Shown here: positions 1-37,030 of the stretch, in pieces
Numbering within the stretch: the stretch's first letter is position 1
Layout of the letters: each line of letters begins with the position of its first letter
Assembly: GCA_036785375.1 (NCBI GenBank)
Contig: JAWMAR010000155.1
Coordinates: 1,178,001-1,242,000 of the forward strand
DNA length: 64,000 nt
Direction: 5' to 3'
DNA from: Leucoraja ocellata
Taxonomy: Eukaryota
Notes under the pieces: model-generated
What the model saw: the letters and a program-made list of their open reading frames with translations, nothing else
Told to the model about the DNA's origin: nothing
Databases searched by the model: none
Translations under genes and position numbers: made by a program

Positions 1-550
1 TTGTATTTATTGAAATCTTTCTAAACATGTACCATAATACAATTAACCAATTCACCTATTGTGCAAAGTATGTTTATATGTTTGATTATAAATCGGTTCT
101 GTCTATTTTAAGGTTAGATATCACTTTTGAAGTTCAACCTGAATTTTCTAAACAAAACATGTTAATTTGGGTATATAATTGCCTTAATTAAACATACACA
201 ACTATTACAGGTTACCAGCGCGCTGAATGCGCCATTAAGAAGTTTTCAGTTATCCAGACGTGCATATCTAAGCATTATATCTACATAGTTGTAGATGGCG
301 ATAAGAAGAAAAAATAAAACATATATTTATTTTCGTTTAATTTTATGTTGAAAATAAAACAGTGCGGGTGTTATTTTTTCGAAAATATGTAAACGAAATC
401 TATTTTGCTTGCAATTGATTTATTGCAATTTATATCATATCTTCAACAAACTGTGCTTCACAGGTCAAATGTAAATGCTAGCTATTTAAAGTTGTGCGGT
501 GGTGTTTCACGGTTGCTCCTCTGCATTATTAATCCTGACGAACGTAGTTA

Positions 551-670
551 AGTGTAAGAAGGAAGTGCAGATGCTGGTTTAAACCGAAGATAGAAAAGCT
601 GGAGTAACTCAGCGGGACAGGCAGCATCTCTGGATAGAAGGAATAGGTGACGTTTCGGTCGAGAAGGTTA
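551..670 (-). mobile_element. Penelope-like terminal-repeat fragment with degenerate hammerhead motif
   Basis: Reverse complement matches the repeat at 57758-57883 and 40729-40824 (tctcgaccgaaacgtcacctattccttctatccagagatgctgcctgtcccgctgagttactccagc). Confidence 0.75.
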
Positions 671-2088
671 CGGTTCCTTTTCAGTGGAATTTTAAAAATA
701 AGGTCGGATCTGGTCTTGGTAGAGCAGCAAGATTATTTATATTTATTACCATATAAATCGAAATTCACGAATATAATAAGTATTATGCCAAATCTGGGCG
801 AGCAAATGTATAGAACCAGTCTAGTTGAACAATACCCATCCTTTATCTGAAAAGCCAAACACTGAAATATCGCTATAATTGTTTGTTAACACTACAAACC
901 GTTCTTTACTGAATGAATATTTTTCCGCTTTGATATTTGTTTTGATTATGTACGTAATCATTGATGTATTCAAAGTAAGGATTATAAACTTAAGGTTAAT
1001 AAAAGTTATGGCGCCTTCTATTGTGAGTGTGATATCTTCCAAAGAAGAACGAGTGCTGGATTGTTCAATATTTTTGAGACATGCCTCTTTTTATGCTTAT
1101 AATATAAATAAGTCACATGAATAACGTTTAAAATAGTTCCTGAAGTAAAGGCGTTATTTGTGCTTTTGGAATGACAGGAAAATAGAATGACAAAGGATTT
1201 TGAAATGTTTATTGCCTGTGTGGGAGAGTAAATAGATTTTAACTATCACTTGGATTCTACGGAGACTCAATTCAGTCTTACTTGTTGGTTTAACAGTGCC
1301 TTGCTTTGTCTTTATTCGCCATTACGCCTTTACACCTAGTGTTTAGGAACCATATTCACCACATAATATCTGACGTTACTACGGTTTATTGTGAATTGGA
1401 TAAATCAACATATGGTCCACAGCTTCAAAGGTTGACCGAAGCTGTATGATTTTAATAAGTCATGTGGGTGACATTGAAGACGTCAGATTGTCTACCAGGG
1501 GTGATTGCTTCGGACAAATATTGTTTCTTGGAGCGAACTTCCGTTATTTCTGCTCCTTATTAGATTCACCATAACCAAGAGTTATTCAGCAGCATTATTG
1601 AAATAATGTTGTGGCCAGTGTTTTTTTAACCAAGTTGCGAATATTCCCTTGTCACACATTAAAGAAATATAAATGGCAGGGTGAATGGTGTAGGATCAAA
1701 CGGCGTTCAGCTGATGCGCACTGAACATGATTTTTTGAACCAATAATTTATTCGCTTTGCAATCTGATGTCTTTAGACTAGCATTGAATAATGTGAAATA
1801 GGTTTCGACCATTCCCGACGATGCCATTCTACTATTAACGTTACTTGCATTTTACTGGGCAGCCTTTCCCAGTAAAATTCATTCGAAATCACAGTGGATT
1901 TTTTTTGTTTTACTTTAAACTCGGATATGATTTGTTTATACATCTAGAACTCCATCTTATTTTTTATTATTATTCAAGTTGCCGATTGAAGGCTTAAACT
2001 AAATGCTGTACCACAAGAAGCGGTTAAAATCTTCAACAAGCCTTAAGAAACGCAACGGGTCGCTGGGTGGGGTGGTGGTGGTGTGCGG

Positions 2089-2128
2089 GTGTGTGTGTGT
2101 GTGTGTGTGTGTGGGGGGGGGGGGGGGG
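2089..2128. repeat. (TG)n microsatellite followed by poly-G
   Basis: Directly visible. Confidence 0.95.
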
Positions 2129-5100
2129 TGGATTAAATCTCGGCATTTATTCATAATCGATCACATATCATTTTCACGTAATATGTATAATGTCTATGAA
2201 TGGAGTTTGTCTCTTCTCTCATAACACATTATGCTTTACATAAGTGTATTGGATCAGATATTTGCGGTGATTGTGTTCTAGTCGATCTGTTGCTGAAATT
2301 CAGTTTTGATGATCAATTCTGACGTCAAGTTCCATGTCTAATAAATATCACAAAGAATAAGGTATCGTGTTTTTGATTTCTGTGCAAAATCGATACTTGA
2401 ATAGCAAAATGACTACTTGCACGGGAAAAATATGGGGCACAAATGTTTGACGTGATTAATTTTTACATTGTTTTGTATTCTGGTCGTCTTGTTGTTTAGG
2501 ATACTAGTCCTTATACATGCATTGCTTTGTTGTCACGACTTATCAGTGAATGGACGTTAATTAATGCTCTCCAGAAGCTTGGATTGGGTAGATGATAGGA
2601 AGCAACAGGGGATGAATCCCTCCAAAATGGTTTGTCAACGATGAGAAAGAAAAGCCAGTGTCAATAAAAGAACCACTAATGATGGCCACACGTCTCTCAC
2701 CATGTTGTCTAACGTGCCTTTCCATCTCTTGTTGACTATAGTCAAGTGTAATAACTGCATATCCTCAGTCAAGCATTATAGCCTTTCACCGTGTGGATTA
2801 ATTAGTAAGTGTTGTCACCTCTTCACTTTTTGTGACCACCATTTTGGACAAATATCGAAGGAAGCAAGTACGTGGACATAGGGTGAATGTGGGATTGAAT
2901 TTCGATTTTCGCTGTTCCTATCACTTAGAAATCCACTTGGTTCTTAAAGGTTCTTAAATTAGAAACGACAGAAAAATTGTTAAGTCACCGGAAAAAATGC
3001 TTGCTCATTTCACCATCAACCATAGCGCAAATGAGAGCGCATGCGTATGCTTTTAAACTATATTGTATTTTAACCAATAAATAGGCCGAACTGGGTTTTA
3101 TGTGCAGAAAAGGGGAGAATCCTTCCCAATAAAATCAGTTTGCTTGTAGCTCGTAATGACACATGCATATTTTAACCATTTTTGTTTACCAAAACAGAGA
3201 TATTCGACTGAAATAAATCCAGCTCTAACCAAATTAACTTGGCTGAAACCTTGCATCCATTTTGGTAATTTGCCATCTATTTCACCATCGCGTGACTGAT
3301 TCGAGGAAGCACTTCATCCGACGTAATATCACATACCGCAGAAACAATTCAAGTTAAATCATGTAATCTTGCAATATTTTAACAGAGAACCGCAACATTT
3401 TGACACGTACAATTTACACAGAGATAACATAACATGATGTAATGCTTATTTTTTATCTATTAGTTACCAGGGAAAATATGACCCCGAGTCATTTAAGATC
3501 CACGCTAAGGGGTTTGCAGTAAGCATGCGCTGTTTGAGCAACAACTGAAAGAAAATTTGACCACTGAAGAACACAGCAATTTACAATGAGGGTGGGTGGC
3601 TATTGATTTCAACAAATATCTCGCACTCCGGCAGCAATTCGAGGTGATTTTCTGTATCCATTATGATATGGCACTAAGAAACATAATATACTTAATGCAA
3701 TTCCCAATAATTCCATCGAAATGTATTTCCAACAATTCATTTACCTGCGATCCAGGTCTAAATTTCAGGTCCCTGAATGTCCATGCAAAATAAGAAAGTT
3801 TTTCGTGGACTTGGGACGGGATTATGCTGGGCGAAATCTCGAAATCATGGTAATAAATTCATTAGAAGATTGCTTCCCTACAGATTGCAACGTGCCTGTC
3901 ATGTTGAGAAGCAGCTATTTGCTAACCGAATAGCCTGCTAACTTATTTCATTGTCAATTTACTCAAATTTGGAAGCGATCGATTTGTGACACGATGCTAT
4001 AATAATCTCATCCGAAAGAATTCCTGATTAAAAGTTAATACCTATTGTTTCCGTGTGCCTAACTTAGCGTGGACTTTAACATAAAAACTAACAGGACGGA
4101 ATTGTGGCCAGTTTTAAAGGCGACAAGGATAGAGCTATGAATAGTTTAATTAAAACTAGCTTATATTGTTAAACACGGTTTGGTGAAAAAAATCTGCTGA
4201 AAGAATCTGTTTCAGGTTGAATGCTTTTTAACAGATTCCTTTTTTAGTGGTGTCAGGCGCAATGTAATGCTTAGGACTTATTGTATAGTGCCCATTTTCC
4301 GTGTTCTCAGAAAACCCCCCCTACATAATCAAAAAGTGAACAGCAAACAAAAGATGTAGGCATTACAAGCGATTGAAGAGAGTGGGGAAAGTGCATGTTT
4401 TTAGTCAGGAGAACTCGGCCCTAAATCCGCTCAGGGATAGTACACAACAAGAAAAATCCACATTTATCGTGTTTTAATTATGTTAGATGCGATATGACTG
4501 TTTAACAATTGTAATTTAAAAGGCCATCATGTAATAAGCAATTCTGTTGTACATTCAATGCAGCCCATATTATTATGCTTATGTTTTACGTTTACTTTTT
4601 AGGTGAACACTTTGTTCAATGAAGTTTGCCCCATCTTTGATTTAAAGCTAGATACAAGACCCCAAAGGCAATGCTGTTCAAGACTATTTCGCTAATAGAA
4701 TGTGGGAGGCAAATTAAATGAAACGTGGAGGGGGAATATAAAATGGTCTTTGAGTAATAGAGATCACTGCGACTAAACCTCACTACAATACTGTAGAAAA
4801 TCGCATTGAACAAAATGGCGACCGTGTAGTAGTTTGAAATGTAAAGACCGAGAGTTAATGTTTCTCCACACTGATATTGCATCACCACCAGAACATGAAT
4901 TTGGTCGTTATTAATGCAGAGAACATTCATGTAATGAATGTATACATTTAGGAAAAATCTTTGGCAAATGTCCGACTCTTCACTCAAAGATTGTGACCTT
5001 TTAAGCCACAGCACTCTTTCGAGAGCAATTATTTTTTATCAGTTGAATACATTTGAACTTTCAAGAATGGACTAGCATTTTTTAATACAGAATTTGAACA

Positions 5101-5543
5101 GGTATAGCATCCTTACATCGGCGCACAATTGGCCTGTAGTCTAAAATGTATCAACAATTCCAACACTGTCCGGTCTGTACACGTCCTTCTATCTTTTATC
5201 TCTTTAGGAACGGTTCAGAACTAACGGACAGAAAACGCTTGACAGAGAGGAGAACAAATCGCTGACAAAGAACGCTTTCCGTTTCATCAGCGTCGTTAAG
5301 ACGACGAGGAAGAATCTCTTAGATAATAACTCCCACTTCAAAGAATTTTGCCCTGAATAGAGAATGTACCATCCTTTTTATACAGCCACAAGGGTTTTCA
5401 CTAAAGAGGACTCGACTGTTTGGTTATTTTTCACCGTGTTTATTTTTCGCCATTCACTGGGTACTTGTATAAAATAAACAACAAGACAATTACTAAAAGA
5501 CGAATTCCCAACTTATCTGCTCACGGGGCCCAGATCGAACCCG

Positions 5544-5743
5544 NNNNNNNNNNNNNNNNNNNNNNNNNNNNNNNNNNNNNNNNNNNNNNNNNNNNNNNNN
5601 NNNNNNNNNNNNNNNNNNNNNNNNNNNNNNNNNNNNNNNNNNNNNNNNNNNNNNNNNNNNNNNNNNNNNNNNNNNNNNNNNNNNNNNNNNNNNNNNNNNN
5701 NNNNNNNNNNNNNNNNNNNNNNNNNNNNNNNNNNNNNNNNNNN
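5544..5743. other. Run of Ns (gap or masked segment)
   Basis: 200 N. The left flank gatcgaacccg is the reverse complement of a tRNA/SINE B-box-like cgggttcgatc. Confidence 0.95.
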
Positions 5744-6993: not shown

Positions 6994-6999
6994 TTTATT
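6994..6999 (-). terminator. Candidate Zic4 polyadenylation signal AATAAA
   Basis: tttatt on the + strand ~940 bp past the Zic4 stop. Other candidates at 7192-7197, 7309-7314 and 7510-7515, so the used site is not determinable. Confidence 0.3.
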
Positions 7000-7932: not shown

Positions 7933-8440
<508 letters not shown>

Positions 8441-11359: not shown

Positions 11360-12657
<1,298 letters not shown>

Positions 12658-12779
12658 GCTTATAATGCCTGACTGCAGGAAAATAATAAAATAAACTTTT
12701 TTTTTTCAAAAGTTACCGAACTTTGAAAACTCGCCCTTTGCCAACGTGGAAAGCCATTCGGTGTAGAGAGTGCAGACGG

Positions 12780-13030
12780 ATGGCAGCAGCAGGAAGCATT
12801 GAGAAACTGAATTGAAATTCATGAACAGCTTTGTAGCCCGTCGGGCTCCGCGAGCAACACGCCGTCTCATTGGTGAGTTCCCAATGATAGACAGTGCCAG
12901 TTACGGACCCCAGACGGGACACATGCGTATTACACCCGACCGATGTTTGATGGGGTGGCGGGGAGGGGGTGGGGGGCAGGGCAGGGCATTGGTAATGGGT
13001 AAGGGAAGGAGGGGGGGAGTTGAGGGGTGA
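12780..13030 (-). promoter_or_regulatory. Putative Zic4 proximal promoter
   Basis: GC/CpG-rich. CCAAT boxes at 12869-12873 (ATTGG), 12881-12885 and 12988-12992, and a G-run block at 12951-13030, all within 400 bp of the ATG. Confidence 0.55.
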
Positions 13031-16000
13031 ATGGGAACATGGAAAAATCTTTTTGGCTGAAGGGCGTGGGATTTTTCTGCTAGTTTCTTGAAACACACTA
13101 ATTTTATTAGGGAAATCTGTAACCGTTTTCGCCTATTTCTGCTCTTCTAAGGGGAATCAGCTAAGGGAATAACAAAAAAACTGTACATTTTAAAAGTTGA
13201 TCAGAGCGGGAGTTGTTTTTTTGTGAAAATATCATAAATAGCGAATATTTGCCGTTTATTACCTAATTTCTGTGTTTACTTTTGCTAAAATCTGGTCGTT
13301 GCCGGGAGCTTCCGCCAACGATAAATTGGGAAGCATTTAAGATTCTGGTCTATATAAAGTATTCTCAACTATGAAATTAAATTATATGCGCCGATTATTA
13401 ATCTGGGTCTCACTTTATTTTGGAGAGATTAAAAGGACACAGAAAGCAGGGATTCTGCATTGCTGCAGGATTTTTAAAAATAATATGAGGTGTTACAACT
13501 GTGTTTGTTTTACGGACAAATATACAGTTAGACGTGTAGGAAAGTTTACCCGGTGTCTGAGCCAGTCAAATACCAGTATCTGTTTTGCAACATCAAACAC
13601 TGTGTCCCGCTCACCGCTGTACTGAGCCACAGCAGATCCTGTGGTTTATGCAAGAATTTAGTTTTTGCGGGCAAGACGGTTCGGCACTAAACCTTAAAAT
13701 GAGGTTATGGCCTGTTATACTCCGGCCGGATATTAGTTAGTGATTTTTATCTTTCCTGACACTCGCAGACTGCCAGGCGTGTTATGTTTTTTTGACAAAA
13801 TCAGACGGCTGGTGTTCTTAGCGGCACAGACGATCAAAGAGATTCCCAGTCAGAGGCATCTGTTAACTTTTTTTTCTTCCCGAGACTGAGTATGAAACTT
13901 TCTCAGCATGTAATAACTTATTGAGTTCTCTTGCCCGCAGTCCCGGCTTGGTAATTCTGTAAGCTAGAGTCCAGGGAAAGTTTGGCTTTTCGTGGAGGAT
14001 GTTGGATCGGACTTGAAGGTGGGGATGGGGGAGGGGGAGGGGGAATACTTCTATTTTCTTAGGCGTTGTATTTTATTTATTTTTTACCCCGGTCGGTACT
14101 GTTTTTCTACAGATTGGCAAGCGATTTGAATTACTGCCTACTTCACATGGATGCAAACGTGTTTCGTTTTAAAACTAAACGTGTTTCCAATTCCAAAGCT
14201 ACAGCTTGCGAAGGCGATCCCAGACCGTGCTTCGAGAATCTATACACACAGCGTAATCCGCAAATAGGAAACCCGCATCGCTTGTGGTGGAAAAGAAAGT
14301 AAACTGTAGAGTGTTTCGGGAGGCACGCAGAAAGATAACGTGATGATAAATGACTGTGTGCTTGTATCATTGCACGGGCACACGTGAATGAAAGGCTTTT
14401 AAAGCGATCTCCCGTCTTCATATCAACCTTACGATTTCATATTTTTATTCTAATACCCGAACGCAATGCTGCTTACAATCCCTCCCCCAACATACAGTCT
14501 TATGTCTGCATCTGTAACTTGCTTAGTGCAGATCGCCTGTGTACGTCGCCTTGAGTACAGACGTCTGCCATCTAAGTGAAAAGTAGTTTAGACTTTGATT
14601 TTTCAGAGAAGACCAGGGTGACAAAACAGGCTACTAACTCAAACATGTACGTTGTGGCTCCTCAGATTATTCACCAAGGGTACAAAAGGGGAACGGAAAC
14701 CTAGTGCTGCGATATCCGTGGATTTAGGCCGTCGTTCTAAGCTGATCAACGGCAGGGCTTGAAGCCTGCAGCCTTGCACACAGCAGACCTACAGTTCAAG
14801 AGAGAGAGAAAAAAAGGTAGGTTTTCAAAGGGAGGTGGGAGTTATAATGTGGAGAGAAATTTGTGGGGGCGGGGGTGGTGGTGGAAAGAAACAGAAATAC
14901 CAAATTTAAGCTGGGAGAGAGATAAGAAGGAGAAAATGCGTAAGCAACGTTATACGTGTGGGGAATGTATCCAGAGACACAAGAAAGAAAAAAATGGTTA
15001 AAAAGTATGATCAGATGAGAACACGTGGGGGAGGGATATAGGCATGGCGGTGGGGGGAAAGATCACAGTTGTTCAAACATTTCTCTTTAGTCATGGCAAA
15101 TATGTTGAATATAATGAAAGATTTGCACAATTTGTAAACACTAACCTTCAAAACGCAAGGAGGGTCAGGAAGATAATTCAGAAAAAATATGTTATTAACG
15201 CATATTCACTGTCAAACAATAATTTCACATATGGGTATTAAAAGGCTTTGGAATATCTCATGCAATAATACTTGTACTACGGTGTATGCTATATATTTAT
15301 AAACAGCAAATATTTCAATAGTTGACGTTTTTATTTCTGTTAATTCACGTACTATTTGCATCTACCATAGTTTGACCATCAGGTGGAATCACAAAGCGGG
15401 TGAATAATCTATAGATTTTTTGCGTGTTTTTATTTATCATCCAAAGAAAGCTCTGCTGTGCAACAGAGAAGGATGCAGTGTAGATCTGTGAATGCTGACA
15501 CGTTTATATCTTAGCCTCTAGGGCTTCACACTGCTGGCTTAAGATGGGATTTGTACATGTGCGTCTGCATTACCTGATCGAGCCCCCACCTTAGTGTCCG
15601 TTTGCCTGCTGTCTTCCGAGCAATTTTTCAGCAGCAATTGTCAATTCCTAGAAAAGAACAGACTGCTTATGCACGTTTCAATATATAAATGTTTCCGTAA
15701 ACGTAAATATACGAGAAACATACAAGTAAATCATAATGTCGAATAACATGTTCACATGTTGTCACTGTGGATACGTTATTCCACGTATGCATGCACTATT
15801 ACACCTAAAGTATCGAGGGCTGCAAATTTTGCAGTATTGTTTCGTGTCTTTGAAGTTAAAAGCACTAGACAGTAAGAATATTCCATTACGGTAGACTTTC
15901 AAATAAAAAAATAGTCAAAGTGAGATATACACCTCGCTAACGTTGCTAATGCTACATAATAAATTCATTTTAGCCAGATGAAACATTCTGTGCTTTACAT

Positions 16001-18892
16001 TAAGTATAGGATATATTAGATACGGTGAGACGTGCACTCATACCTAACAATAAGGTTGATGTGATTCAACAATTCACTTTATTGTGTTATATAATTGATC
16101 CCTTCACGCAATCATATGTTTTATTTCAAAAATTAAATGTAAACATCGATAAATTATGTGAGATTTGCTTTTCTGGAAGAGTAGTGCTAAATTTTCCCCA
16201 AATTATCTAGAAATTAGAATGTTACTCTTATTTTCATTTACTAGATAGTTTTCCAATGTGATTAAAACATCACATAACAAAACGAGCTAGATTTTATATC
16301 CTCCTTATGATCGGCAGTTCACTGTTTCCTGTACCCCATTATAAACAGGAAATTATTTCAGAATTCCAGGTCTGTAGACTACAGGATCAACACGAAAGAA
16401 GTCCAACTGAGATACCAAGGAACTTTGATTATACCTTTGTGTTGTATGAAAAACAGCGGAAAAAAACACTACGATGAATGCAATAAATAGACATGGTACT
16501 CCGCATAGTTAAAACACTACTGAGCAGTGTACATTCCTAATTATTTCCTCGCAAAATTGTATTTCGAAGGACACATTATAAAGGAACAGATTAGGGAAAT
16601 AATCTTTTTTGATAAAATCTTGGTGCTGGCGTTATTCTGATGCAATGTGTTCATGTCCTTTTTGACCAAATTTGATATGAAATATAGCGGAAAATCTCGC
16701 TATTTTGGGTCCATGCGTTATACTCCTTTCTTTCAACCCACTCATAGAACGTTTAACGTAATGAAGAGGGAAATTCTTCATTCTACTACAGTTTAATTCA
16801 GCTTGTTGCAAGTGCGTGAGTTGGTGCATGTTTGCAGTTTAAATCATAAGGTCTAATCTAAGGATATCGTGATTGATATTGCAAATAAACACAATGGACC
16901 CATTATATTTCTGGCAAAGGGCAATAGGTTGTCCATTAAATCACCCCAAAAACTTAAAATCGAACAACATGAAGCATTGGACAGCATTTTTAACAAGCAA
17001 CATAATATGGGATAGTATGTCTAATAGCTAGGATTGACTGCGCACACTCAAGCTGTGAGTGGTTTACGTTAGTGATGTGCGGTGTTGGAATTCCATGCCA
17101 TTCTATCTTATCATGATACATTTTGCAAATATTTAACTAAAGAAGTTTGATTATGAAGAAGGGTATAACATGTTTTATGTGTAAAATATGCAAACTGTCC
17201 ATGTTAACTAAAACCAGAATAATACCCCAGATTAAAGAAAGTAGCAACTATATCATACTGAATGATAGATACATCGCGGTTAAGTAGCAACATCAGCGTG
17301 GTGCACTTTATACAGAATGCAGAGTTACTTTTTTACCTTTGCTGCATTTTTAAATTAGATATTTATTCTGTACTTGGCGTACATACGATGCTACATCCAG
17401 GCCCCACCCCCTTGTAACTGAGGATATTAATTTCATGTACCAATAAGTCTTAGACTTTTGTCTGGCTAATTATATTGTTGAAAATAATCTTCAAGCAGCA
17501 CCAATTGAGTGCATTGTTTGGTTTTGCCTGAGCAATATATCAGTATCTCCGCCGTATCTGCTTTTCACTCGTCTTTTTGCAGACGTCAACTTAAAAAAAA
17601 AACACAGTTAAACATTTTTATGATACATTTCTTCTAATAACTGAAACTATAAAAGCTATAAAAGCAGGATCGGGGGAGTATAGTTGTTTTCGATGCATTT
17701 ATAGACGAAAAACAACATTTGTTTCAAAATATGCTTTAGTTTCTCCGAAGGAGGCTGGGATGTAATAACAGGTTATCACCATGGTAGAGAAAAATGGGTG
17801 CTCTATATACAGTTCTCATTAGAGTTAAGATCACTAGTTGCACTTTTAATGCAGCTACAATATAAACACACTACATATAAAATGCTAAATTATACGGGAT
17901 TTTGAGAGAATTCAACACACTTTTCAATGTCAGAAACAGATACACGTGATTAGTTAATTTACCCGCTGCGTTGACCGCGGAGAATAGATACCGTAGTCTA
18001 TATCTCACCACTAGTTTATGACTGGAACTGATTAAGCAGCGGTGGAAAGAAGCTAGAAACCAGATAACTTGTACCATTACGATTGTATATTTGTAAGAAA
18101 AGTGAAACTATCTAAAGATATACTATACTTCCCATGTCTAAAATCGTCATTGCAATTCAGCAACTAATGTCAGCACTCTTTTGCGAATTATATTGAAGTA
18201 TTCCACATTCATACCAAATTTAGAGAATCGATGCCAATGAATGTCCATAACTTGAAGGATATATATTTTGGTATTGTTCTGAAAATATCCCTATACCTTT
18301 AACGGTGACCATGTCCACTAGTAGTGCGTTGTATTCCTTTTTTTGCAAACACAGAACAATTATGGAGAAAAAGATCTCCTCGTTCAATTTGTTGCCGAAT
18401 TACTGCTAACTTTACACTAAAAAATAGTCTTGGTGACACTAACCCGAAAATGCGTTTTGCTAACAATATCATTAAATAGTGGTGATGCAGGAACGCTTTT
18501 TCTGGAATGAATCGGGGAATTATGGTTGTGGTTATACATTTCTATGTAGTTGCCTGTAAGGCCGATATTTAGGAAGATAGAAACCCACCAAGAAAACCAA
18601 AGCTCCACTCCAAAGTTGGTCTAATATACTCTTCCAAATCACATTGTATTCAAATTATCCGTAAATGAACAAAATAATGCAACTGTCATGGAAAAATATG
18701 GAATCTACATAGACTGGGTCGAAGGTTGTTGTTACAATACTATGGTCGTCAAATATTAATACTGGTACTTTCAGGCAGGGTACATTGATCTACAGCAAAC
18801 AGCTGCTTGCGGGATGTACTGTCACTAATTTATACAGTGAGCGACGACATAAAACAATGTAAATGACCACGATTCAGACTAGAGGTCCAAAA

Positions 18893-19433
18893 NNNNNNNN
18901 NNNNNNNNNNNNNNNNNNNNNNNNNNNNNNNNNNNNNNNNNNNNNNNNNNNNNNNNNNNNNNNNNNNNNNNNNNNNNNNNNNNNNNNNNNNNNNNNNNNN
19001 NNNNNNNNNNNNNNNNNNNNNNNNNNNNNNNNNNNNNNNNNNNNNNNNNNNNNNNNNNNNNNNNNNNNNNNNNNNNNNNNNNNNNNNNNNNNNNNNNNAG
19101 GCTGTTGTGTTTTTTTGAATGGGNNNNNNNNNNNNNNNNNNNNNNNNNNNNNNNNNNNNNNNNNNNNNNNNNNNNNNNNNNNNNNNNNNNNNNNNNNNNN
19201 NNNNNNNNNNNNNNNNNNNNNNNNNNNNNNNNNNNNNNNNNNNNNNNNNNNNNNNNNNNNNNNNNNNNNNNNNNNNNNNNNNNNNNNNNNNNNNNNNNNN
19301 NNNNNNNNNNNNNNNNNNNNNNNNNNNNNNNNNNNNNNNNNNNNNNNNNNNNNNNNNNNNNNNNNNNNNNNNNNNNNNNNNNNNNNNNNNNNNNNNNNNN
19401 NNNNNNNNNNNNNNNNNNNNNNNNNNNNNNNNN
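18893..19433. other. Two N runs (18893-19098, 19124-19433) separated by a 25-bp island
   Basis: Directly visible. Confidence 0.95.
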
Positions 19434-22400
19434 GACTGGGAACAGCCAGACACACATGCGTTATGAGGCCAACATTATTTTGTGTCAACAGCTTATCAAA
19501 TAAACAAATTACTACTTAGTTTATTGGTGGTATTTCATTGAAAATGCGAAAATACCATAGAAAGATTTTTTAAATACCTTGATTAGTATAACGCGCGGTT
19601 TCAATTGTAGTTATATTAATTCGAAATCTATTAATTATTCATTTTACAAGCTTGCATCTTAGTGGTTCGGTTTATATTTTTGATATAAGTTAGAAATTCG
19701 ATGATGCTAAATGTCACGCCGGTACTGGAACTGGTTTTGTTCAGAGTTCATCGTGTATTAAACAATGCTGAAGATAATCCAAGAGCTGGCAGTCATCGTC
19801 TTAAGTAAAGAACGTCAATTCAAAGGAAGTTAAAACAAACTATGAAATAATATCTATCATATCTTTACACCATTTGGGGTGTTTTTTTGGATGTCATTTC
19901 TTTCCAAGTATGTGTGGGGGCGAGTAAAAGCGTGTAAAGACGTGTAAGCGTATCAATTAAAAAAGTAACTAACCTGCAAAATGCTCATTGTCATATTTCG
20001 CCGTGAGTATGCATTTTACTCCAAGGAGGCACCAGCAAATCTAGGGGATTTTGACAACCAAATAACAATTCCAATCGTGGTAACTTTTTGTAGCAATGTT
20101 GCAGATAAATAGATATTTATATTACTAAATAACTTTGCGGGCACAAAAGCTTCAACAAAAAAGTGACGTTTAAACGTATAGGGCATGTATTTAGGGCTAC
20201 AAGTGTTCATTCGGTAAATAATATCAGCAATGCATAATACACAGCGAAATTACAGTTTGCCTTTCAATTTCTTTATGACAATATTTTCTGCGACAACATT
20301 AGTATCGCAGTGGATATGAGTGCAAAGCAAATGCAAACTCCATTTGTTTTGAATAGTTCAAAAGCTACAAATGTAAAATGCATATTGCATAAACACCTCC
20401 CCCCCCCCCCCCCCCTCCAAATATATTATTTATCTACAAATGAGTACAGTGATCATAGCATCTTGCTTATACCGTTATGATTTGGGGTATATTTTGTTCT
20501 ATATATTAATAATCCTAATAACATCTTATTTGCTACGTATATTTTAGTCAGTTTGTGTCGTAATTTCAATATCGTAGTGTTGAATAATCCTTACAATATC
20601 CTCCATAATGTCCATCCCTCCATTCACTTGTATTTCAAAAATTCTGGTAAATTTTCGGGAGCAACATAAAAGGATGTTGCGCCTTGTCGTGCATTAAGGT
20701 CATTTTTCAGTAACTATGAAAGATCGACGTCAATAAAGCGCACTGATTTCTAAAGTTCTGTTTCCTTTCCTTGTTCAAATACACCAAACTCGCTCTTCCC
20801 GTAATTCACGAATCTCCAGTTTTTAAGACTTCGAGCACCCTTCAGCATCCATAGCTGAAGAATAAATTATGAAAAAAGGAAAGAGAATAAGTGATAAAGA
20901 CCTGTTTTGTTTTTCGATCCCGCATTGGATTTAAAACAAATCCCTTTGAATATCGTAGTGTGAAATCCCTGTCTAATTGTAACTATACTAGAAATAATTC
21001 AGAATATTGTAATAACTCTGCATGTACAAATTATCCAATACACTTTTCGCACCTCCAACGTCGATGCCATGCACAGATTTCCGGGCAGGCAGTCAAATAA
21101 TGGGTAAAGTCAGGGGTGGCCTTCAAAGTTCTGCCTCCCGCCCCTAAACTAGCTCAGGCAACCTTCTGATAGTTGCAATTTTAATACAAAACTATCTGCT
21201 GAAAATCTCAATAATGTGTCCATTATAGAAAGTCTAATAACTCTGTCTAACTTCCAGCTTCTGGACGTTATTTTAAACAACAATTTGAAATGATATTGGA
21301 CTTTAGCCGGAAATCACCAGAATACCAGTTGAAAATTATCTTTGCTTTGATGACATTTTAGTTTAGTGCCAGTGTCCAAATCATACATATTTCCGGTTGC
21401 ATGGTTTTTTGTCTCAAACAAAGCAAATAGATAGCAAACAGTTCACAGAAGCGCCCACCACTAAAATCATGTTATTTCTACTATTATGGATATACCTAAT
21501 GTTAGTGTGGAAACATTAAAAAGTCAATGTGCGTTCAATTTGTTAATTTATATATAGAACAATTCCATATTGAACAATTATTTTCCAGTTCGACGTTTTA
21601 GTTCGAGCACAGCTAATATTTTTCGAAGGTATACATTATGTGGCATTGTGTGGCTTTGGCACATGTGGTCGGTCACGGGTCATGGGTCAAACGATATGGT
21701 ATTTCAAAAGTCGGCGACTTCAGAGCTATCCTTGCGCGCAGAAGCCAACTGACTAACTTCATTTGAATCAGTTTTGATAGAGATAAGTATAATAAACGAA
21801 ACGATAACACACTGGCTCAGGAATCAAACAATACGATCAACACGAAGAAATTCGGCCTCAGAAACATTCAAATTAACTTTGAAATAATTCCAATGTCCAT
21901 TCCAATGCTTGGAATATTTGCTTAGAGGAAGCAAGTAAACAATTATCAGTTAATTATCTTAGAATTCTAATGCGTTTTGCTTGCAGGAAAAACACCGATA
22001 AACGACACGCGTTGACCGACGCAATTGTTGAAGAGCTCTCTCACTGTACTAGAACATACATTTGAACACAAAACAATTCTAGTTGCGAGTGTGGTTTATA
22101 AGCGTAGCTGCGTTTTAAGAAGAGCATCAGTTAATACATGTTTGTCGCAAATAAGCGATTGAAAGATTAACTTCAAATTAGAAATCAAATTTAAGTTTTA
22201 AATTGAATTCATGGAACACATCGAATTTTAAATCAAGTTAAAACAATTCCTTTTTTAAACTAGTACTTCAGCCTACAGACGTATATCCCCCCACCCCCGC
22301 TCCTCCCTTCATAGAACAACCAAATGCTTTGCTATCCATCGACCGAAAACAATCCGAGGGATAATATCGGTACACACAAGTGCTTTCGAATGGAAATGCA

Positions 22401-24719
22401 TAATTCAAAGCCACTCGCACCTAGTTTTGCTTTTATTGGAACATGATGGCTCCTGACAAGGGCTATTCTGAGGAAACAAAAATCTGACTGATATCTCTAT
22501 TCTCTTTTTAGTCAATTGCATTTACATGAAAGATGATGGAAATTCAGGGGTCAGGAGTCGTTTAGTATAAGTCACTTGAATACACGTGCCTCTCTTACCG
22601 TCCGCCACCTGTTGAAGAAGATGTCTTCGATCATTTAATTCAGGTAACTGAAGTTTTTAAAGAAATCTACTTTGTAGCGGCAACTAGGTAGTCATTCTTC
22701 ATTTCGCCTTTTCAAGGTTTCTGGAAGCAGTTAGGGAATGTATGATGAAGCAGAAATGAGCCGTCAGGATGATATTTTAATGGCTTATATGTCACGTCGG
22801 TGCATGCGGCTTTGAACTCAAGCAGCCTGCGTTTCCTGCGGAGAACGCCGCAAATCCCACTTGATAACTTCTACCATCCTTCAAATTTAAAAATCAGTCC
22901 TTCTTTGTATATTGGGAGAAGTAGTCTAAAGATAATGCTATGGGAAACGTTTACTTTTCATACTCCTAAAGTGTCCCTTTAGAATTTGCACACTCAATGA
23001 GCAGTAAATCTTTTTGAATCAAATTGCTCCAGCTTCTGCTTCTAGACTGCTGTGATTTTAATATCAATGTTATCAGTATATTGCATCATTTAAAGTAACG
23101 CTATGTGGCTAGCTATTGTAATCACCCAGCAAGACAATATTATGTTCTACTTAAATCTTTAAGAACGCAGGAGATCCAGATATCCAACCAAAGCAGACAA
23201 ATAAGATTTCTTTTTGTGCACAAATATGGGACCTATCGCGTCAGAATAGTCAGTTTAACCACAATTAGTATCTTCTCATAAGGCAATTTTAGACCATTAA
23301 AGTACCTTAAAAATTACACTAATTCCCTATTCAATACCCACACCGGCCTCGTGCTTTCGACAAAGTAAGCACGTAGCCTCAAATTGTTGTAAATTGGAAA
23401 CTCAAGTGGCATGCATTTTAATTTGTTTTTGGTATAAGCTCTTAGTGCGAACCTTGTCGTCAGGTTCCTACCCCGTAATGATAAACATGCTTCCTTGAGC
23501 AACAGCGCTACTGTAAAATATCTATAGAACTTTGCTGCCGAATAACGTCCTAAGGTGGTCAATTAAACGCTGGGCTTTCGCATACTCCAATACCTTCGCG
23601 CGAAATATTTTGTTCGAAGTTAACCTGTTGTACTTTAACAGTAAATACTTTTTTTTTTAAGTGTTTGTTTGAAAAAAAAAAAGCGAGCAAACGTGTTCGT
23701 GTAAACTGGGTAATCACAAAACTGAATTGGAAAGAGCATAGATTGGAAGAAATAAGACAAGTATTTGAAAGCACTGCCCTTCCAAAGTGATGGTTTGCTA
23801 ACGGAGATAATAGTTAAAGGATGCGGTAAGATCTCTTTGTTATAAAATAAGACTTTAACTCGGAGGTTTAGCTTCAAGGAAGTTCATTGAAGTGGCGAAC
23901 AAAAGGTAAATTGAACGATTCCGATTCTGTGTTGGCTTTTTACGTTTCTATTACTTGAATGTAATTAGACTTAATGAATATGCAAACCGTTGGCCTCACT
24001 TTAAAAAAAACTTTACAGGGACACAGTAAATAGACTTTAACAAATTTGGGGCAGCGGATGGGAAAGTGTAAACTAAAAGATGATGTGGTAAAAAGCTATA
24101 TTTTCCTTTACTGACGATGTGCATAAACAATTTCCGCATTCATTGTCCGCAATCAATGAAAAGCGCACCACTTTTTATACATAAAGGGGGGAAATCCTTA
24201 CTTCCAGCTATTCTGCGATTGTGTGAGGACCTATAGATATGTATAGAGCAATTCATCGTCACCATAGTAAAAAAAAGGACCAAGCAAGATGTTTTCAATC
24301 GCCTTTTACATGTGGAAAGACAGGTTAATCAAGGGTTTCGTCTCGAAAACAACCGAGTGTTGTATGTTTGTACTGAATCCAAACATATGCATTTTCCAAA
24401 CCCAATTCAATAGAGTGTTCTTTCTCTTTTTGCTCACTCATCTGGGTAAGTGAATTTTCACCGGCGATCAAAAAGCTACTGAACAACAAAGGAAGCCGCC
24501 CGCTTTTTTTTTCTAGTCTGGAGTTGTGGCACATTAACGAATTTCAAACAGTCTGACAAGGGGTGACTGAATTGTGAAGTCGAAGAAGACAAGAGTTTTC
24601 TTCTGTTCTCTCTCCCACCCCCTTTCCCTCCTCCTCTTTCCATATTATATATATAAAAAAACGGAGAGGGGGAAAAAGAAAGAAAATGCGGACGGCAATA
24701 ATTTATCAGGAGGGACTGT

Positions 24720-24890
24720 CACGGGTGCACAATACCTGGGATTGATGAGGCGGGCGGGCCAATCAGGAGGCGGGATGTGCGCCCCAAACTGGTGATTGGC
24801 GCCAGGGCACAACGGGGCAGCGCCAGCCTGGCCAATTGGTGGAGACGCCGAGCGCCACGTGACTCCTCCCCCAACTCCCATTCATCAAGG
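24720..24890 (+). promoter_or_regulatory. Putative Zic1 proximal promoter
   Basis: GC boxes at 24749-24758 and 24769-24774. CCAAT/ATTGG at 24759-24763, 24795-24799 and 24832-24839. E-box CACGTG at 24856-24861. CpG-rich. Confidence 0.7.
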
Positions 24891-24927
24891 GGACGGTGTT
24901 GTCTTTTCAATTCATTTATCTGCAGGA

Positions 24928-24975
24928 ATGATTGCCGCTATCATTCTCGAGCTCACCGCCCGGCTGATGAGGTGA
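24928..24975 (+). other. Upstream ORF 1 in the presumed Zic1 5' UTR (MIAAIILELTARLMR*)
   Basis: ATG at 24928 to TGA at 24973-24975, between the promoter motifs and the main ATG. A second uORF lies at 25018-25071. Confidence 0.45.
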
Positions 24976-25219
24976 AAGTTTCTCCCCAGGAAGATAAACC
25001 GCAAAAGACAATATTGCATGATTTGCGTTTGCAGAGGGGGAAAATATCTTCAGCAAATTCCCACACGCTGAAGAGAGAGAAGAGAGAAAAATAAGGAGTT
25101 TTTGCAAGTCCTGCAGACAGACTCAGAGACTATTTTATATTAAGCAAGTTTCGTTGTGAATTGTTTGTAGTTTGCCTTTCTATATATTATTGTTCACTTT
25201 CTACCCCCATCGCCAGACG

Positions 25220-26195
25220 ATGCTTCTGGACGCTGGACCTCAATATCCTACTCTAGGAGTGACTACCTTCGGATCATCCCGACATCACTCAACAGGCGAT
25301 GTCAACGACCGAGAAGTGGGACTGGGGATAAATCCTTTCGCTGACGGGATGGGTGCTTTTAAAATCAGCCCCAGCACTCACGATCTCGCATCGGGTCAAA
25401 CTGCCTTCACGTCGCAGGCACCAGGCTACGCCGCGGCTCTGGGTCACCACCCCGGCCATGTGAGTTCGTACAGCAGCGCTGCTTTCAACTCGACCCGGGA
25501 CTTCTTGTTTCGCAATCGGGGCTTTGGGGAAGCGGCGGCGGCAAGTGCCGGTCACAGCCTCTTCGCTTCGGCCGCGGCTGCGGGCAGTTTTGCCGGACCC
25601 CATGGACATACCGACGCTGCGGGGCATCTACTCTTCCCGGGGCTTCACGAGCAGGCGACGACCCACGCTTCTCCAAATGCACATGTAATGAACGGGCAAA
25701 TGCGCTTAGGCTTTTCTGGGGACATGTATGGCAGAGCAGACCAATACAGCCAGGTCACTAGTCCCAGATCGGACCACTACGCCTCGACCCAGCTACACAG
25801 TTATGGTCCCATGAACATGAACATGGCGGCCCACCATGGGGCCGGGGCCTTCTTTCGATATATGAGGCAGCCCATAAAGCAAGAACTGATATGTAAATGG
25901 ATAGAGCCCGAACAGTTGACGAATCCTAAAAAATCATGCAACAAAACTTTTAGCACGATGCACGAACTAGTTACACACGTAACTGTGGAACACGTAGGGG
26001 GACCAGAACAGTCGAACCATATCTGCTTCTGGGAAGAGTGTTCAAGAGAGGGAAAGCCTTTCAAAGCCAAATATAAACTTGTAAATCACATCAGAGTCCA
26101 CACTGGCGAGAAACCTTTTCCCTGTCCATTCCCCGGCTGCGGCAAAGTCTTTGCTCGATCAGAAAATCTCAAGATCCACAAAAGAACTCACACAG
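25220..26195 (+). CDS. zic1: Zic1 coding exon 1 (ZOC box, ZF-NC, ZF1-ZF3)
   Basis: [24 protein letters not shown]..., ZOC motif [35 protein letters not shown]. Donor CAG|gtatgg. 976 nt, phase 1. Confidence 0.97.
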
Positions 26196-27638
26196 GTATG
26201 GAGAATTATTTTAAAAAATCACGGAGAAGTGAAATGTTACGGAGCGTTTATAATCGTTTCTATCATATTAATAAACAGGTCTCCCATATTATTTATTCAA
26301 TAGCAATTTTAACAATACATATGCAAATAAATATCATGTCAGAATAAAATGCACATGTTTAGCACTTTGATGTTCCTTAACTCTTGATGTTCCTTGCTGT
26401 GGCTGCGGTTCCTTAAAAAATAAGAACATATATATGTTTACCGCGGTTCCACGTCATGAAATGCTATACTTTAAAAAAAAATTAAAGTGGAATCAGTTAA
26501 CATAATATACGTCGTAGTAGTATTTATTTTCAATTAAATTGTCAATTTTATCTAAACATGAGAATACCTTTGGTTGCTTGGTTTCGTTAGAAATTCACAC
26601 CCGAAAGAGCATATACTTATGTTTTTTCACTCCCTTTAGTTTGGCTTCTTTATTGATAGTAATTAATTTTACACATATATATGTTAGTGGATTAGATAAA
26701 GCCGCGAAATCAACTTTCGACGATACAAAGTTCTATTCATGTAAATATATTTGCGCGTAAATATTATGTGCGTGTTTGTAAATGTGTACGAGCGCGTGTC
26801 CGAGTATATATGGGTATAATACGTTCCCACCGTGATACATATATATTGGGATCTTCCCGGGTTTATCGTCTTGTTAAAACTTGGTCCACGGTGTGTTTGT
26901 GAAAAAAAATGCACTCGACAACAATGTCGATGTTAGTGGCACATAATGGTGAGGTTGTTGTAAAGATTTAACAAAGTCGAGATTTAACATTTTCTCGACT
27001 GCAAAACCACCAGGGGCACTTAACAACAATTCACTTCACTGCATGAGATGTCCACTAACTCTTATTTTAAATAAACAGAATTGGAAACGGTTTAATTAAA
27101 GCGAAAATGCAAATAGAATTAGCAAATAATCATTTCCGTTGTCTGTTTAAAATGCTATTTCAGCATTTGCGTTACAAAAGCTGTATTAGTCTATTAGCGA
27201 AGCTATGCTTGTGTCAGGGAGAATCAATGTTTTAAATAAGAATTTGAATCCAAAAACTAGTCAGGTACCTATTTACAACTTTATTTGAGATACTATTGCA
27301 ATTAAAACAAAACAATTACTCGTGGGCATATATGCATGTAAGGCCGCTACGGCAGCTGCAATGTCTTGTAACTAGTCAGTGTCGATAATATAAATTAAGT
27401 AAACGATCAACATTATTAATCTGTGATTCATCCGCCATAAAATTCTAAACAGAGAAGATGGGGACATAACCTAATCATGCTGCAGATATTTAGGAGACGT
27501 GAGGCATAGTTGAAAAAATCGTGAGGCATGGTGATCCAAAATACGTATTTGTTTTCATGATGGCTGCTTTTCTTTGTTTTTTTAAAATAAGTTTAGTACT
27601 TTTGTATGTACACTCACGCACATACCCGGTCACACAGG

Positions 27639-27668
27639 CACACACACACACACACACACCCACACACA
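27639..27668. repeat. (CA)n microsatellite in Zic1 intron 1
   Basis: Directly visible. Confidence 0.9.
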
Positions 27669-27722
27669 TGTAACGTACACAATATATGTGTAAATAATGA
27701 ATTTCCAAGAAAAAAAACCTAA

Positions 27723-28004
<282 letters not shown>

Positions 28005-28320
28005 TGACAGCTCCGTGCAGATTAAATTATGGAGCAAGATCCCTTTTGTAACCATGTATGGTCAATATATTTTACTCTACCATAGGTCAAATTTAAATAT
28101 CGCCTACAGTTACGAAAACAAATCTATCAAGCATTTGTGCTGCATTTGTTTACTTGGCAACTTTTGGCGATTACATTTTTGAAACTGAATTTTGCAAAGG
28201 TCTCATTGTGTTAAACGATATATTATATAGAAATACATTTTACAAATTTAAGGGAAAGCCCTCACACAAACGCTATAGTTGTCTATAAGACTATTTTTAT
28301 ATGGTGGATGGTTTTTGTAG

Positions 28321-28521
28321 GTCCACGAAGCAGCCTCTCAAGGGTCACAGCCTTCTCCTGCGGCAAGTTCTGGCTACGAATCCTCAACACCCCCTACCAT
28401 CGTGTCGCCCTCTACAGAAAACCAGACCAACAGTTCAATGTCCCCGACATCATCTGCAGTTCACCACCACACATCCAACCACAGCACGCTCTCATCGAAC
28501 TTTAACGAATGGTACGTTTAA
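28321..28521 (+). CDS. zic1: Zic1 coding exon 3 (Ser/Thr-rich C-terminus)
   Basis: ttttgtag|[66 protein letters not shown]. Total CDS 1341 nt = 446 aa. This frame is not in the ORF track. Confidence 0.96.
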
Positions 28522-35200: not shown

Positions 35201-35862
35201 TCCACATGATCCTTAGGCAGCAGAAACAGAAACTACTTTACGTTAGAAATTGACATTGAAAACCGTTTGGGTAATCAATGACTATGTGGCCAATTGAAGA
35301 TTGTGAAGCGCCACGAGTTTGGATGTTTTATTTTTCCCGATTGATAAATGACGGGCTGAATCTAATAGCAAAAATGACGGAATTTATTTTAATTTCCCAC
35401 TAAATTATTTCCAAATTTGTCATCATTATATTTGCAAATGTTACGTCTGCATATTGTTGACTATATGTTGCATTGGCATTTTCATAAATTTGGAAGAAGA
35501 CTGCGAGGAGGTTCTATGCTATAAAATACATTTTGCGATTTATGTAACCACAATGAATGTATTAACGAAAGATGAATGCAATTTCTACAAATTCGCCCCT
35601 GCGATGTCCATTGGTTAAATTACAAAACTACTTCGTTTTGGCTTGTTGGTAAGGAAGGTTTCTACTTTACACTAAGGGTGTGCAGAATGTTGCAAATATT
35701 GATTGCGCCGATACTTATTAATAACTACAAAGTATTATAAAAAAACAAGAAAATGTTACATTTATCAACCATGAATTTCAGTACCTTTTGCATATAACTT
35801 AATGGAAATGAAAAGTAGAGTTGTTTTATAGTGGAAATAAGTAGTTTGTAGAGATGGACATT

Positions 35863-36081
35863 CATGAGGCAATGAAAAGAAACGCAGGAATGGAGATGCA
35901 CATTGGATCTGTATAGTTCTCTCTCGCTGTATATGTACATATATACAATCACATATAATGTTATTATATGATATATACATATATATATATGCAGTTCGTT
36001 CCTACACACACACAGCTAGCTAACTAGCTATACTGATCCAATGCACATCTGCATCCCTGCGTTTCTTTTCATTCCCTCGTG
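35863..36081. repeat. Imperfect inverted repeat, 54-bp arms with an AT-rich spacer
   Basis: 35863-35916 vs reverse complement of 36028-36081: 47/54 matches. Confidence 0.85.
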
Positions 36082-36439
36082 ATGCCGGGTGAAAGATCAC
36101 CCTTAATAACTCACTTGCCTGCACTCGACGTGCACTTCGCATCTATCCCTCTGCATGTTGTTTTTTTTATTGTTTTACTGTGGAGAAAACTTTACGAATG
36201 AACTTTTCGATTCCTTGTATTTGTGCACAGCTAATTTACATTAACGTGAATTACATTAACGGGGCATTGTATAGTATTCTCAATGTTAAAATTACGAACG
36301 GAATGCAATTTTGCACGACTTGTTTCTTTTGCAGAATGTTGCACTTTTGCAAAGGATAAAGCTGTAGGAAGCAAGTTGCAGTGCTTCCACCTGCATGAGG
36401 AGACCAGGTCGGCTGTGGAGGCTCCTGACTAACAACTGG

Positions 36440-36665
36440 CCCAGGTACAGGGCACCTGCGCGTTCTTGCTGCCTCGCCATCTAATCACGTAACCCCCCCA
36501 CTCCTCGATAACGGTTGAATCACGCGGCGCCGCTCCAGTCCTGGTCTGCGCATGACCCGCGCCTTCCCGCCTAAATGCCCCGCGAGCCGCGGGCGTCAAC
36601 CGCCTAGTTCGAGCTCCTTCCATCCCTCATTCATCAAGGACACCCTTGGCCATTCAGGTCGTTCG
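36440..36665. promoter_or_regulatory. Small orphan CpG island, promoter-like element
   Basis: GC- and CpG-dense. NRF1-like TGCGCATG at 36547-36554 and YY1-like CGCCATCT at 36475-36482. Confidence 0.5.
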
Positions 36666-36707
36666 CCAAAACGTTCACTTCTGGTGTATTTCCTTTAAAT
36701 TTTCAGC

Positions 36708-37030
36708 AGGATCCAATCTTTTTGGCACACCTTGTGTCACCCAGTGGAGTAGTAACCAAGATCCAACATTCTGGCACACATTATGTCACCCAGTGGAGTG
36801 TTAGCATAATTCAATCTTCTGACACATCTTGTTTAACCAAGTTTAGTTTAGAAATACAGCTGGAAAAAGCACCCATAGTCAGGACCAATCCTGTGTCTCT
36901 GGTACTGTGAGGCAGCAACTCTACTGCTGCACCACTGTGCCACCCACTGGGGTCCACTGGAGCATCCATTGGAGTAGTTTGCAGGATCCAATCTTCTGGC
37001 ACAGCTTGTGTTACACACTGGAGTAGTTAC
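36708..37030. repeat. ~50-bp degenerate tandem repeat interrupted by a SINE fragment
   Basis: Unit aggatccaatcttctggcacaccttgtgtcacccagtggagtagtaacc at 36708, 36758, ~36808 (partial) and 36983. Confidence 0.75.
36841..36945 (-). mobile_element. tRNA-derived SINE, internally deleted
   Basis: Minus strand gtggcacagtggtgcagcagtagagttgctgcctcacag... (A-box-like head) joined to a (ctaaa)n-type tail. Confidence 0.65.

What the first reader, a model, noticed from the sequence alone, without database searches (positions are those of the whole stretch)
1..36700. At least 36.7 kb CpG-retaining, transposon-poor domain with a sharp right edge (methylation-canyon footprint)
Seen: by hand I count 23 CpG in 34261-34860 and 0 in 38881-39480, both AT-rich non-coding DNA. 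Recognisable transposons are nearly absent left of 36.7 kb and dense to the right. The switch occurs within ~100 bp after 36665. Established: germline methylation erodes CpG, and developmental transcription-factor loci lie in large unmethylated, Polycomb-marked valleys. Inference: this is a long-lived unmethylated domain that GC-based CpG-island callers would miss. Its left edge is outside the window.
Basis: partly seen in the sequence, partly recalled or inferred. Interest (0 to 1): 0.7.

Follow-up and report, generated by a model that had tools for sequence, protein, structure and literature searches.

The report
Zic4/Zic1 methylation-valley footprint in ray
About 55 kilobases around the developmental genes Zic4 and Zic1 of a cartilaginous fish have kept their CG letter pairs and carry almost no transposons, likely because the region stays unmethylated in the germ line, which is already known for these same genes in human, mouse and bony fish.

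Summary
CpG o/e is 0.86 left and 0.27 right of a step at 36,672 (support 36,594-36,771). The domain covers the head-to-head Zic4/Zic1 pair of a cartilaginous fish, probably a batoid. It extends 17.8 kb left of the window (core 54.5 kb), with a graded shoulder to about -25.5 kb. None of 60 background 10-kb stretches exceeds o/e 0.69. Repeats cover 129 non-exonic bases of 1-36,672, against 28.5% to the right. Contigs of 3 of 4 laid runs bridge the step, so it is not a mis-join. At the duplicated Zic2/Zic5 paralogue locus, CpG transitions affect 16 of 2,055 CpG sites inside its domain and 45 of 599 outside, which is what lack of methylation would produce. [quoted passage not shown] Methylation and H3K27me3 were not measured here. 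Verdict: a real, expected new member of a known class.

The parts
1..36672 (.). CpG-retaining, AT-rich (GC 0.38), repeat-poor domain. It is the right two thirds of a 54.5-kb core that starts about 17.8 kb left of the window (G000:C155 ~1,160,200), with a shoulder to about -25.5 kb
540..668 (.). The only high-copy repeat found in 1-36,672. It keeps 4 of 4 family CpG positions
7933..8364 (-). Zic4 coding exon 2 (last zinc fingers and C-terminus). The reading frame shifts near 8,206 in this assembly
11512..12657 (-). Zic4 coding exon 1. The reading frame shifts near 11,776, in an A run, in this assembly
12658..25219 (.). Divergent interval between the Zic4 and Zic1 start codons, inside the domain, with no repeat detected
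25220..28521 (+). Zic1 coding span, exons 25,220-26,195, 27,757-27,920 and 28,321-28,521. Exon 1 is 95% identical to elephant shark Zic1 protein
36291..36672 (.). Small GC-rich CpG island at the right edge (GC 0.61, 23 CpG in the last 250 bp), single-copy in the genome. Candidate boundary or regulatory element, function untested
36706..37034 (.). Degenerate local ~50-bp repeat present on both sides of the SINE (36,706-36,832 and 36,963-37,034), CpG-free. It supports continuity of the assembly across the SINE
36840..36950 (-). First high-copy repeat outside the edge (SINE-like; class recalled, not library-checked). It keeps 0 of 8 family CpG positions at 7.7% non-CpG divergence

Best explanation
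The region is a 54.5-kb CpG-retaining, transposon-poor domain over the divergent Zic4/Zic1 gene pair, and is likely the mutational footprint of a DNA methylation valley (canyon, broad non-methylated island) kept unmethylated in the germ line. Shown: the CpG step, the genes, the lack of repeats, the same plateau at two other Zic loci, and about 10-fold fewer CpG transitions inside than outside the paralogous Zic2/5 domain. Inferred: outside the domain, 5-methylcytosine deaminates and CpG decays to TpG/CpA (o/e 0.2-0.45), while inside, unmethylated CpG mutates like any other site and drifts to o/e 0.8-1.0 even in AT-rich DNA. Inferred from mouse and fish work: Polycomb with TET activity, dense transcription-factor binding and the embedded CpG islands keep DNMT3 out, and selection on regulatory DNA removes transposon insertions. 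The sharp right edge would mark a boundary stable over a long time, probably anchored by the 380-bp CpG island at 36.3-36.7 kb (untested).
For: The step at 36,672 has 2lnLR 384 against a shuffle maximum of 158. All 27 of 27 consecutive 2-kb bins have o/e >= 0.65; the next longest run in 364 kb is 3, and 0 of 60 background stretches have all five bins that high. TpG/CpA rho is 1.14 inside and 1.23 outside. The Zic2/5 locus (~30 kb) and a C12 Zic-family locus (~22 kb) show the same plateau. Between the tandem Zic2/5 copies, CpG transitions are 16 of 2,055 inside and 45 of 599 outside (Fisher p = 1e-17), while non-CpG transitions differ only about 2-fold (72 of 27,414 and 68 of 12,208). After ascertainment correction the implied CpG loss rate is 1.0x inside and 10.1x outside. 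Five repeat copies in the Zic4/Zic1 core lost 10 of 44 family CpGs against 18.4 expected (p = 0.006). The SINE 170 bp outside the edge kept 0 of 8 (p = 0.045). [quoted passage not shown] A cartilaginous fish genome is globally methylated at about 65-70% (PMC5437953).
Against: There are no methylation or chromatin data for this species. The strongest mutation test is on a paralogous locus, with edges defined from CpG content in one copy. One in-domain repeat (about -11.6 kb) lost 5 of 8 family CpGs, like outside copies. The repeat test is rough, because subfamily structure and seed-centred alignments were not corrected. Cross-run differences listed (40 of 441 shown) include CpG-type transitions in 3 of 10 left of the edge and 5 of 30 right, so they show no visible reduction; the sample is small and selected. 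In mouse ES cells, CpG-rich but A+T-rich inserts become methylated (PMC4204011 abstract), so sequence alone would not be expected to protect this AT-rich DNA.
Confidence: 0.88

Rival explanations
1. Purifying selection on dense conserved regulatory DNA, or a generally low local mutation rate, keeps CpGs although the DNA is methylated.
For: Non-CpG divergence between the Zic2/5 copies is about 2-fold lower inside the domain. Transposons are excluded, which itself implies selection.
Against: The CpG-specific drop is about 10-fold and leaves no excess over non-CpG sites. The plateau is uniform over 27 of 27 bins, including introns and intergenic DNA. Repeat copies inside mostly keep their CpGs.
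Confidence: 0.06
2. The domain is unmethylated only in part or only historically: a cluster of separate islands and enhancers, or an older valley that has since shrunk. The sequence footprint would then overstate the present valley.
For: CpG content integrates over tens of millions of years. The left side has a graded shoulder (o/e 0.61). One in-domain repeat is decayed. The medaka domain is only about 20 kb.
Against: There is no dip below o/e 0.65 in any 2-kb bin of the core. The right edge is under 200 bp wide. Recent divergence at the paralogue shows protection continuing to the present.
Confidence: 0.04
3. The step is an assembly mis-join, or only reflects the absence of CpG-poor repeats on the left.
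For: The assembly seems indel-prone (two frame shifts in Zic4; 10 gaps in 5,770 bp against run X2). Listed contigs break inside the SINE at about 36,915-36,920.
Against: Contigs from 3 of 4 runs (X2, X4, X9; three organisms, three studies) span 36,672 with at least 230 bp on the right. That bridged part has 0 CpG against 8.3 expected at o/e 0.86. A genome-unique local repeat lies on both sides of the SINE. Repeats here are richer in CpG than unique DNA (0.32 against 0.23 right of the edge), so removing them cannot raise o/e. X2 may come from the same species and study as the assembly.
Confidence: 0.01

Closest known systems
DNA methylation valleys / canyons / broad non-methylated islands (Li et al. 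2018, PMC5806489; Long et al. 2013, PMC3583005)
   Same: Large domain over developmental transcription-factor genes that extends far beyond CpG islands and has a low deamination rate. [quoted passage not shown]
   Different: Those are defined by measured methylation; this is a sequence footprint only. It lies in a cartilaginous fish, is 54-62 kb long, and has GC (0.38) below the genome sample (0.44).
Medaka zic1/zic4 large K27HMD (shown in PMC4331722 Fig. 1D legend; the original Nakamura et al. 2014 study is recalled, not read)
   Same: Orthologous gene pair inside one hypomethylated, H3K27me3-marked domain.
   Different: About 20 kb in medaka against about 55 kb here. H3K27me3 is not measured here.
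Transposon-free regions (Simons et al. 2007, PMC2241635)
   Same: A stretch of 10 kb or more without transposons over a transcription-factor gene, associated with H3K27me3 domains. Here about 36 kb (669-36,839) has no detected repeat.
   Different: It was called here with a small home-made library and read depth over 8 kb, not a curated repeat annotation. A few repeats lie in the left part of the core.
Classical CpG island (Gardiner-Garden / Takai-Jones)
   Same: CpG o/e above 0.6.
   Different: GC is 0.38, so the domain as a whole fails the GC criterion. Only 5-12% of it is island.

Membership tests
DNA methylation valley / canyon | At least 5 kb long (minimum given in PMC5806489) | tested here: met
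   CpG footprint core of 54.5 kb; length of the footprint, not of measured hypomethylation
DNA methylation valley / canyon | Measured low mean CpG methylation across the domain (threshold about 10-15%, recalled) | not testable with these tools
   No bisulfite or nanopore methylation data reachable
DNA methylation valley / canyon | Covers developmental transcription-factor genes | tested here: met
   Zic1 and Zic4
DNA methylation valley / canyon | Low CpG deamination rate compared with flanks | tested here: met
   Direct at the Zic2/5 paralogue (16/2,055 against 45/599). Weaker at this locus through repeat copies (10 of 44 decayed against 18.4 expected); cross-run differences inconclusive
DNA methylation valley / canyon | Polycomb / H3K27me3 marking when silent | not testable with these tools
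   Known for medaka zic1/zic4 (PMC4331722); no ChIP data here
DNA methylation valley / canyon | Orthologous locus is a valley in other vertebrates | tested here: met
   Zic1 and Zic4 in Table S2 of PMC5806489; Zic1 in 21 of 21 mouse samples
Transposon-free region | At least 10 kb without transposon-derived sequence | tested here: met
   No non-exonic base with 2 or more library hits in 669-36,672; single-copy depth at 28.5-36.75 kb. Low-copy or ancient families and N stretches could be missed
Classical CpG island | GC at least 50-55% together with CpG o/e at least 0.6-0.65 | tested here: not met
   Domain GC 0.38; islands cover 12% (lenient) or 5% (strict) of 1-36,700
CTCF-bounded domain | Strong CTCF motif at the edge | tested here: inconclusive
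   Best edge matches score 11.9 and 12.7 bits with a recalled matrix; 34 sites of at least 12 bits occur in 364 kb

The most novel reading that the evidence does not exclude
In batoids the Zic4/Zic1 valley is an unusually large (54-62 kb), AT-rich protected domain whose right edge has been held within 200 bp by a discrete 380-bp orphan CpG island. Slowly evolving cartilaginous-fish genomes would then record germ-line-unmethylated domains and their boundary elements legibly in raw sequence. That would give a sequence-only map of ancestral jawed-vertebrate valleys, and a natural counter-example to the mouse ES-cell rule that A+T-rich, CpG-rich DNA becomes methylated.
Probability: 0.2. Interest if true: 0.5.

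Novelty: new member of a known kind. Interest (0 to 1): 0.22.

Why it matters
If true, the Zic1/Zic4 methylation valley, known from mammals and teleosts, would extend to cartilaginous fishes and so to the last common ancestor of jawed vertebrates, which is expected but is a useful data point. It also shows that valley extent and edges can be read from CpG o/e in repeat-free DNA of such genomes without bisulfite data, and it names a testable boundary candidate (36.3-36.7 kb). It does not reveal a new mechanism.

Tried and rejected
CTCF boundary: two IUPAC matches lie just outside the edge (36,734 with 2 mismatches, 36,937 with 1), but with a recalled matrix they score only 9.5 and 11.9 bits, and 34 sites of at least 12 bits occur in 364 kb. 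Not supported. NRF1-like, GC-box and CCAAT motif scans (recalled motifs) showed nothing specific to the edge. A shared boundary type among Zic domains: a GC-rich island right at the edge is seen only at the Zic1 right edge, 1 of 7 edges examined. Rfam found 0 matches in the window at gathering thresholds. Cross-run single-base differences were too few and too selected to test CpG mutability (40 of 441 rows). No RNA holder was listed for 33,000-39,500, and no RNA reads were laid, so transcription of the edge island and of Zic1/Zic4 is untested. The Zic4 frame shifts were not checked against reads. No relatives' genomes are held. Earlier-findings look-ups returned nothing. Literature searches for a description of this valley in cartilaginous fish found none in an open-access library; 'zic' does not occur in the main text of the little skate genome paper, whose supplements were not searched.
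Full report
Observation. CpG o/e is 0.856 in 1-36,700 and 0.265 beyond, at GC 0.38 and 0.41. A binomial change-point fit puts the step at 36,672 (interval 36,594-36,771), with 2lnLR 384 against a maximum of 158 in 300 shuffles of 1-kb blocks and 37 for GpC. TpG/CpA, the deamination products, rise from rho 1.14 to 1.23 across it. Island-type windows cover 12% (11 segments) or 5% (3 segments) of the left part, so callers would see islands but not the domain.

What is in it. The domain holds two zinc-finger genes head to head. The plus-strand gene (coding 25,220-28,521, three exons) is Zic1, 95% identical over exon 1 to elephant shark Zic1. The minus-strand gene (12,657-7,933, two coding exons) is Zic4 by its named best hits. 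The window is G000:C155:1,178,001-1,242,000 in a 3.44-Gb assembly. The genome's Zic2 is 96% identical to a Mobula protein and 82-85% to two shark proteins, so the animal is a cartilaginous fish, probably a batoid (inference).

Extent. With 200 kb fetched to the left and 100 kb to the right, the plateau continues to a change point at -17.8 kb (interval -18.2 to -17.4 kb), followed by a shoulder of o/e 0.61 to about -25.5 kb. The core is therefore 54.5 kb, and about 62 kb with the shoulder. The right edge is sharp and the left is graded. All 27 of 27 two-kb bins from -18 to +36 kb have o/e of at least 0.65, and the next longest run in the 364 kb is 3 bins. In 60 background stretches of 10 kb, chosen by round coordinates on large contigs, the median is 0.44 and the maximum 0.69, and 0 of 60 have all five bins at 0.65 or more. 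AT-rich background bins have a median of 0.34 (43 bins), against 0.85 for the 21 AT-rich domain bins. The Zic2/Zic5 locus on C255 (about 30 kb) and a Zic-family locus on C12 (about 22 kb) show the same kind of plateau.

Transposons. Against a 0.9-Mb library from the same genome, only 129 non-exonic bases of 1-36,672 (one repeat at 540-668) have two or more hits, against 28.5% of 36,673-64,000 and 32-34% of the far flanks. This library sees only high-copy families. Laid contigs of four public runs give single-copy depth (7-98) in all 15 bins of 28.5-36.75 kb and 7e3-1e7 in 10 of the 15 bins beyond. Repeats are richer in CpG than unique DNA right of the edge (0.32 against 0.23), so their absence cannot explain the plateau. 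Single-copy, AT-matched DNA gives 0.97 inside and 0.26 outside.

Mis-join test. Listed contigs of 3 of the 4 runs (X2 to 36,902, X4 to 36,919, X9 to 36,915; three organisms, three studies) span 36,672. No listed piece of X6 does. The bridged 230 bp hold 0 CpG against 8.3 expected at the domain's rate. These contigs break inside the SINE at 36,840-36,950, but a local ~50-bp repeat that the genome search found only here occurs on both sides of it. The step is real.

Mechanism tests. The Zic2/Zic5 locus is present as two tandem copies about 98.5% identical over 43 kb, either a duplication or an uncollapsed haplotype. Between them, CpG transitions affect 16 of 2,055 CpG sites inside the domain and 45 of 599 outside (Fisher p = 1e-17). 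Non-CpG transitions are 72 of 27,414 and 68 of 12,208; sites within 3 bases of a gap were dropped. Because TpG-to-CpG gains are counted too, a ratio of 3.0 inside and 4.4 outside is expected without hypermutability. The observed ratios are 3.0 and 13.5, that is CpG loss of about 1x and 10x the background rate. This is the signature of unmethylated against methylated germ-line DNA, but it comes from the paralogue. At the window's own locus, five repeat copies in the core lost 10 of 44 family CpG positions against 18.4 expected from outside copies of matched divergence (p = 0.006). One of the five lost 5 of 8, which goes against the reading. The SINE 170 bp outside the edge kept 0 of 8 (p = 0.045). 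These repeat tests are rough. The 40 of 441 cross-run differences shown contain CpG-type transitions in 3 of 10 left and 5 of 30 right of the edge, which is inconclusive.

The edge. The last 380 bp of the domain are a single-copy GC-rich island (GC 0.61, 23 CpG in 250 bp), followed at once by CpG-free DNA. CTCF-like matches beside it are weak and not rarer than background (motif and matrix recalled). The other six Zic domain edges examined have no such island. Whether it is a promoter, enhancer or barrier is untested, and no RNA evidence was obtained.

How it most likely works. Shown: the plateau, the edge, the genes, repeat exclusion, and loss of CpG hypermutability in a paralogous domain. 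Inferred: the domain is unmethylated in the germ line, so CpG is not eroded. From the literature: cartilaginous-fish genomes are globally methylated (PMC5437953, passages). Valleys are hypomethylated in germ cells, have low deamination rates in island and non-island parts alike, and depend on Polycomb, probably through TET, in non-island parts (PMC5806489, passages). Transposon-free regions coincide with H3K27me3 domains at transcription-factor genes (PMC2241635, passages). I put this reading at 0.88, selection alone at 0.06, a partial or historical valley at 0.04 and artefact at 0.01.

Relation to what is known. Zic1 and Zic4 are listed among orthologous valley genes of human, mouse and zebrafish (PMC5806489 supplementary Table S2), and Zic1 appears in all 21 mouse sample columns, including sperm and oocyte. 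Medaka zic1/zic4 lie in a ~20 kb hypomethylated H3K27me3 domain (PMC4331722, passages). That island prediction fails in fish because non-methylated DNA has high CpG o/e but ordinary GC is published (PMC3583005, passages). It works like a valley. Formal membership needs measured methylation, which could not be tested. My searches found no description of this domain in cartilaginous fish, but the library is limited to open-access papers. Skate methylomes exist (PMC10115646, passages; supplements not searched). One tension is worth keeping: in mouse ES cells A+T-rich CpG-rich inserts become methylated (PMC4204011, abstract only), whereas this domain is more AT-rich than its genome.

Verdict. It is also expected, as a new member of a known class at a textbook locus. 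Interest 0.22.

Noticed in passing
window 11,776 and 8,206 (Zic4, minus strand): Zic4 has two single-base frame shifts in this assembly, both in short homopolymer runs, while its zinc-finger stretches stay 94-100% identical to bony-vertebrate Zic4. Most likely assembly indel errors (run X2 shows 10 gaps against 10 substitutions in 5,770 bp nearby). Recent pseudogenisation is not excluded.
   Followed up: partly
G000:C255:1,530,993-1,573,934 and 1,580,146-1,623,598 (L046-L055): The whole Zic2/Zic5 locus is present twice in tandem, about 98.5% identical over 43 kb: a recent duplication or an uncollapsed haplotype.
   Followed up: partly
G000:C12:6,184,900-6,187,100 (L035-L036): A divergent Zic-family gene (about 55-57% identical to Zic1, Zic3 and Zic4 proteins; possibly Zic6, label recalled) with a frame change. 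No close match to skate Zic3 was found in the assembly at E <= 1e-30. The search gives lower bounds only.
   Followed up: partly
window coordinates +66-68 kb and +120-128 kb (L021, L026-L027); C255 1,644-1,648 kb and 1,664-1,670 kb: Smaller AT-rich, CpG-retaining patches (o/e 0.6-0.9) in the gene deserts beside the Zic pairs; candidate distal enhancers with their own unmethylated footprint.
   Followed up: no
window 53,860-54,999: Reverse-transcriptase-like reading frames of a LINE-type element (type recalled from the translation).
   Followed up: no
window 55,300-55,760: The only strong CpG bump right of the edge lies in a repeat with 23-bp tandem units, probably a young insertion not yet decayed.
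   Followed up: partly
window 48,500-49,500 and 59,500-60,050: Long C/T-rich and G-rich low-complexity arrays that lower the apparent CpG o/e of the right part.
   Followed up: no
window 40,730-40,830, 43,850-43,960, 57,760-57,870, 540-668: A very high-copy short repeat with a palindromic core that resembles a minimal hammerhead motif (resemblance recalled). Rfam gave no match at gathering thresholds.
   Followed up: partly
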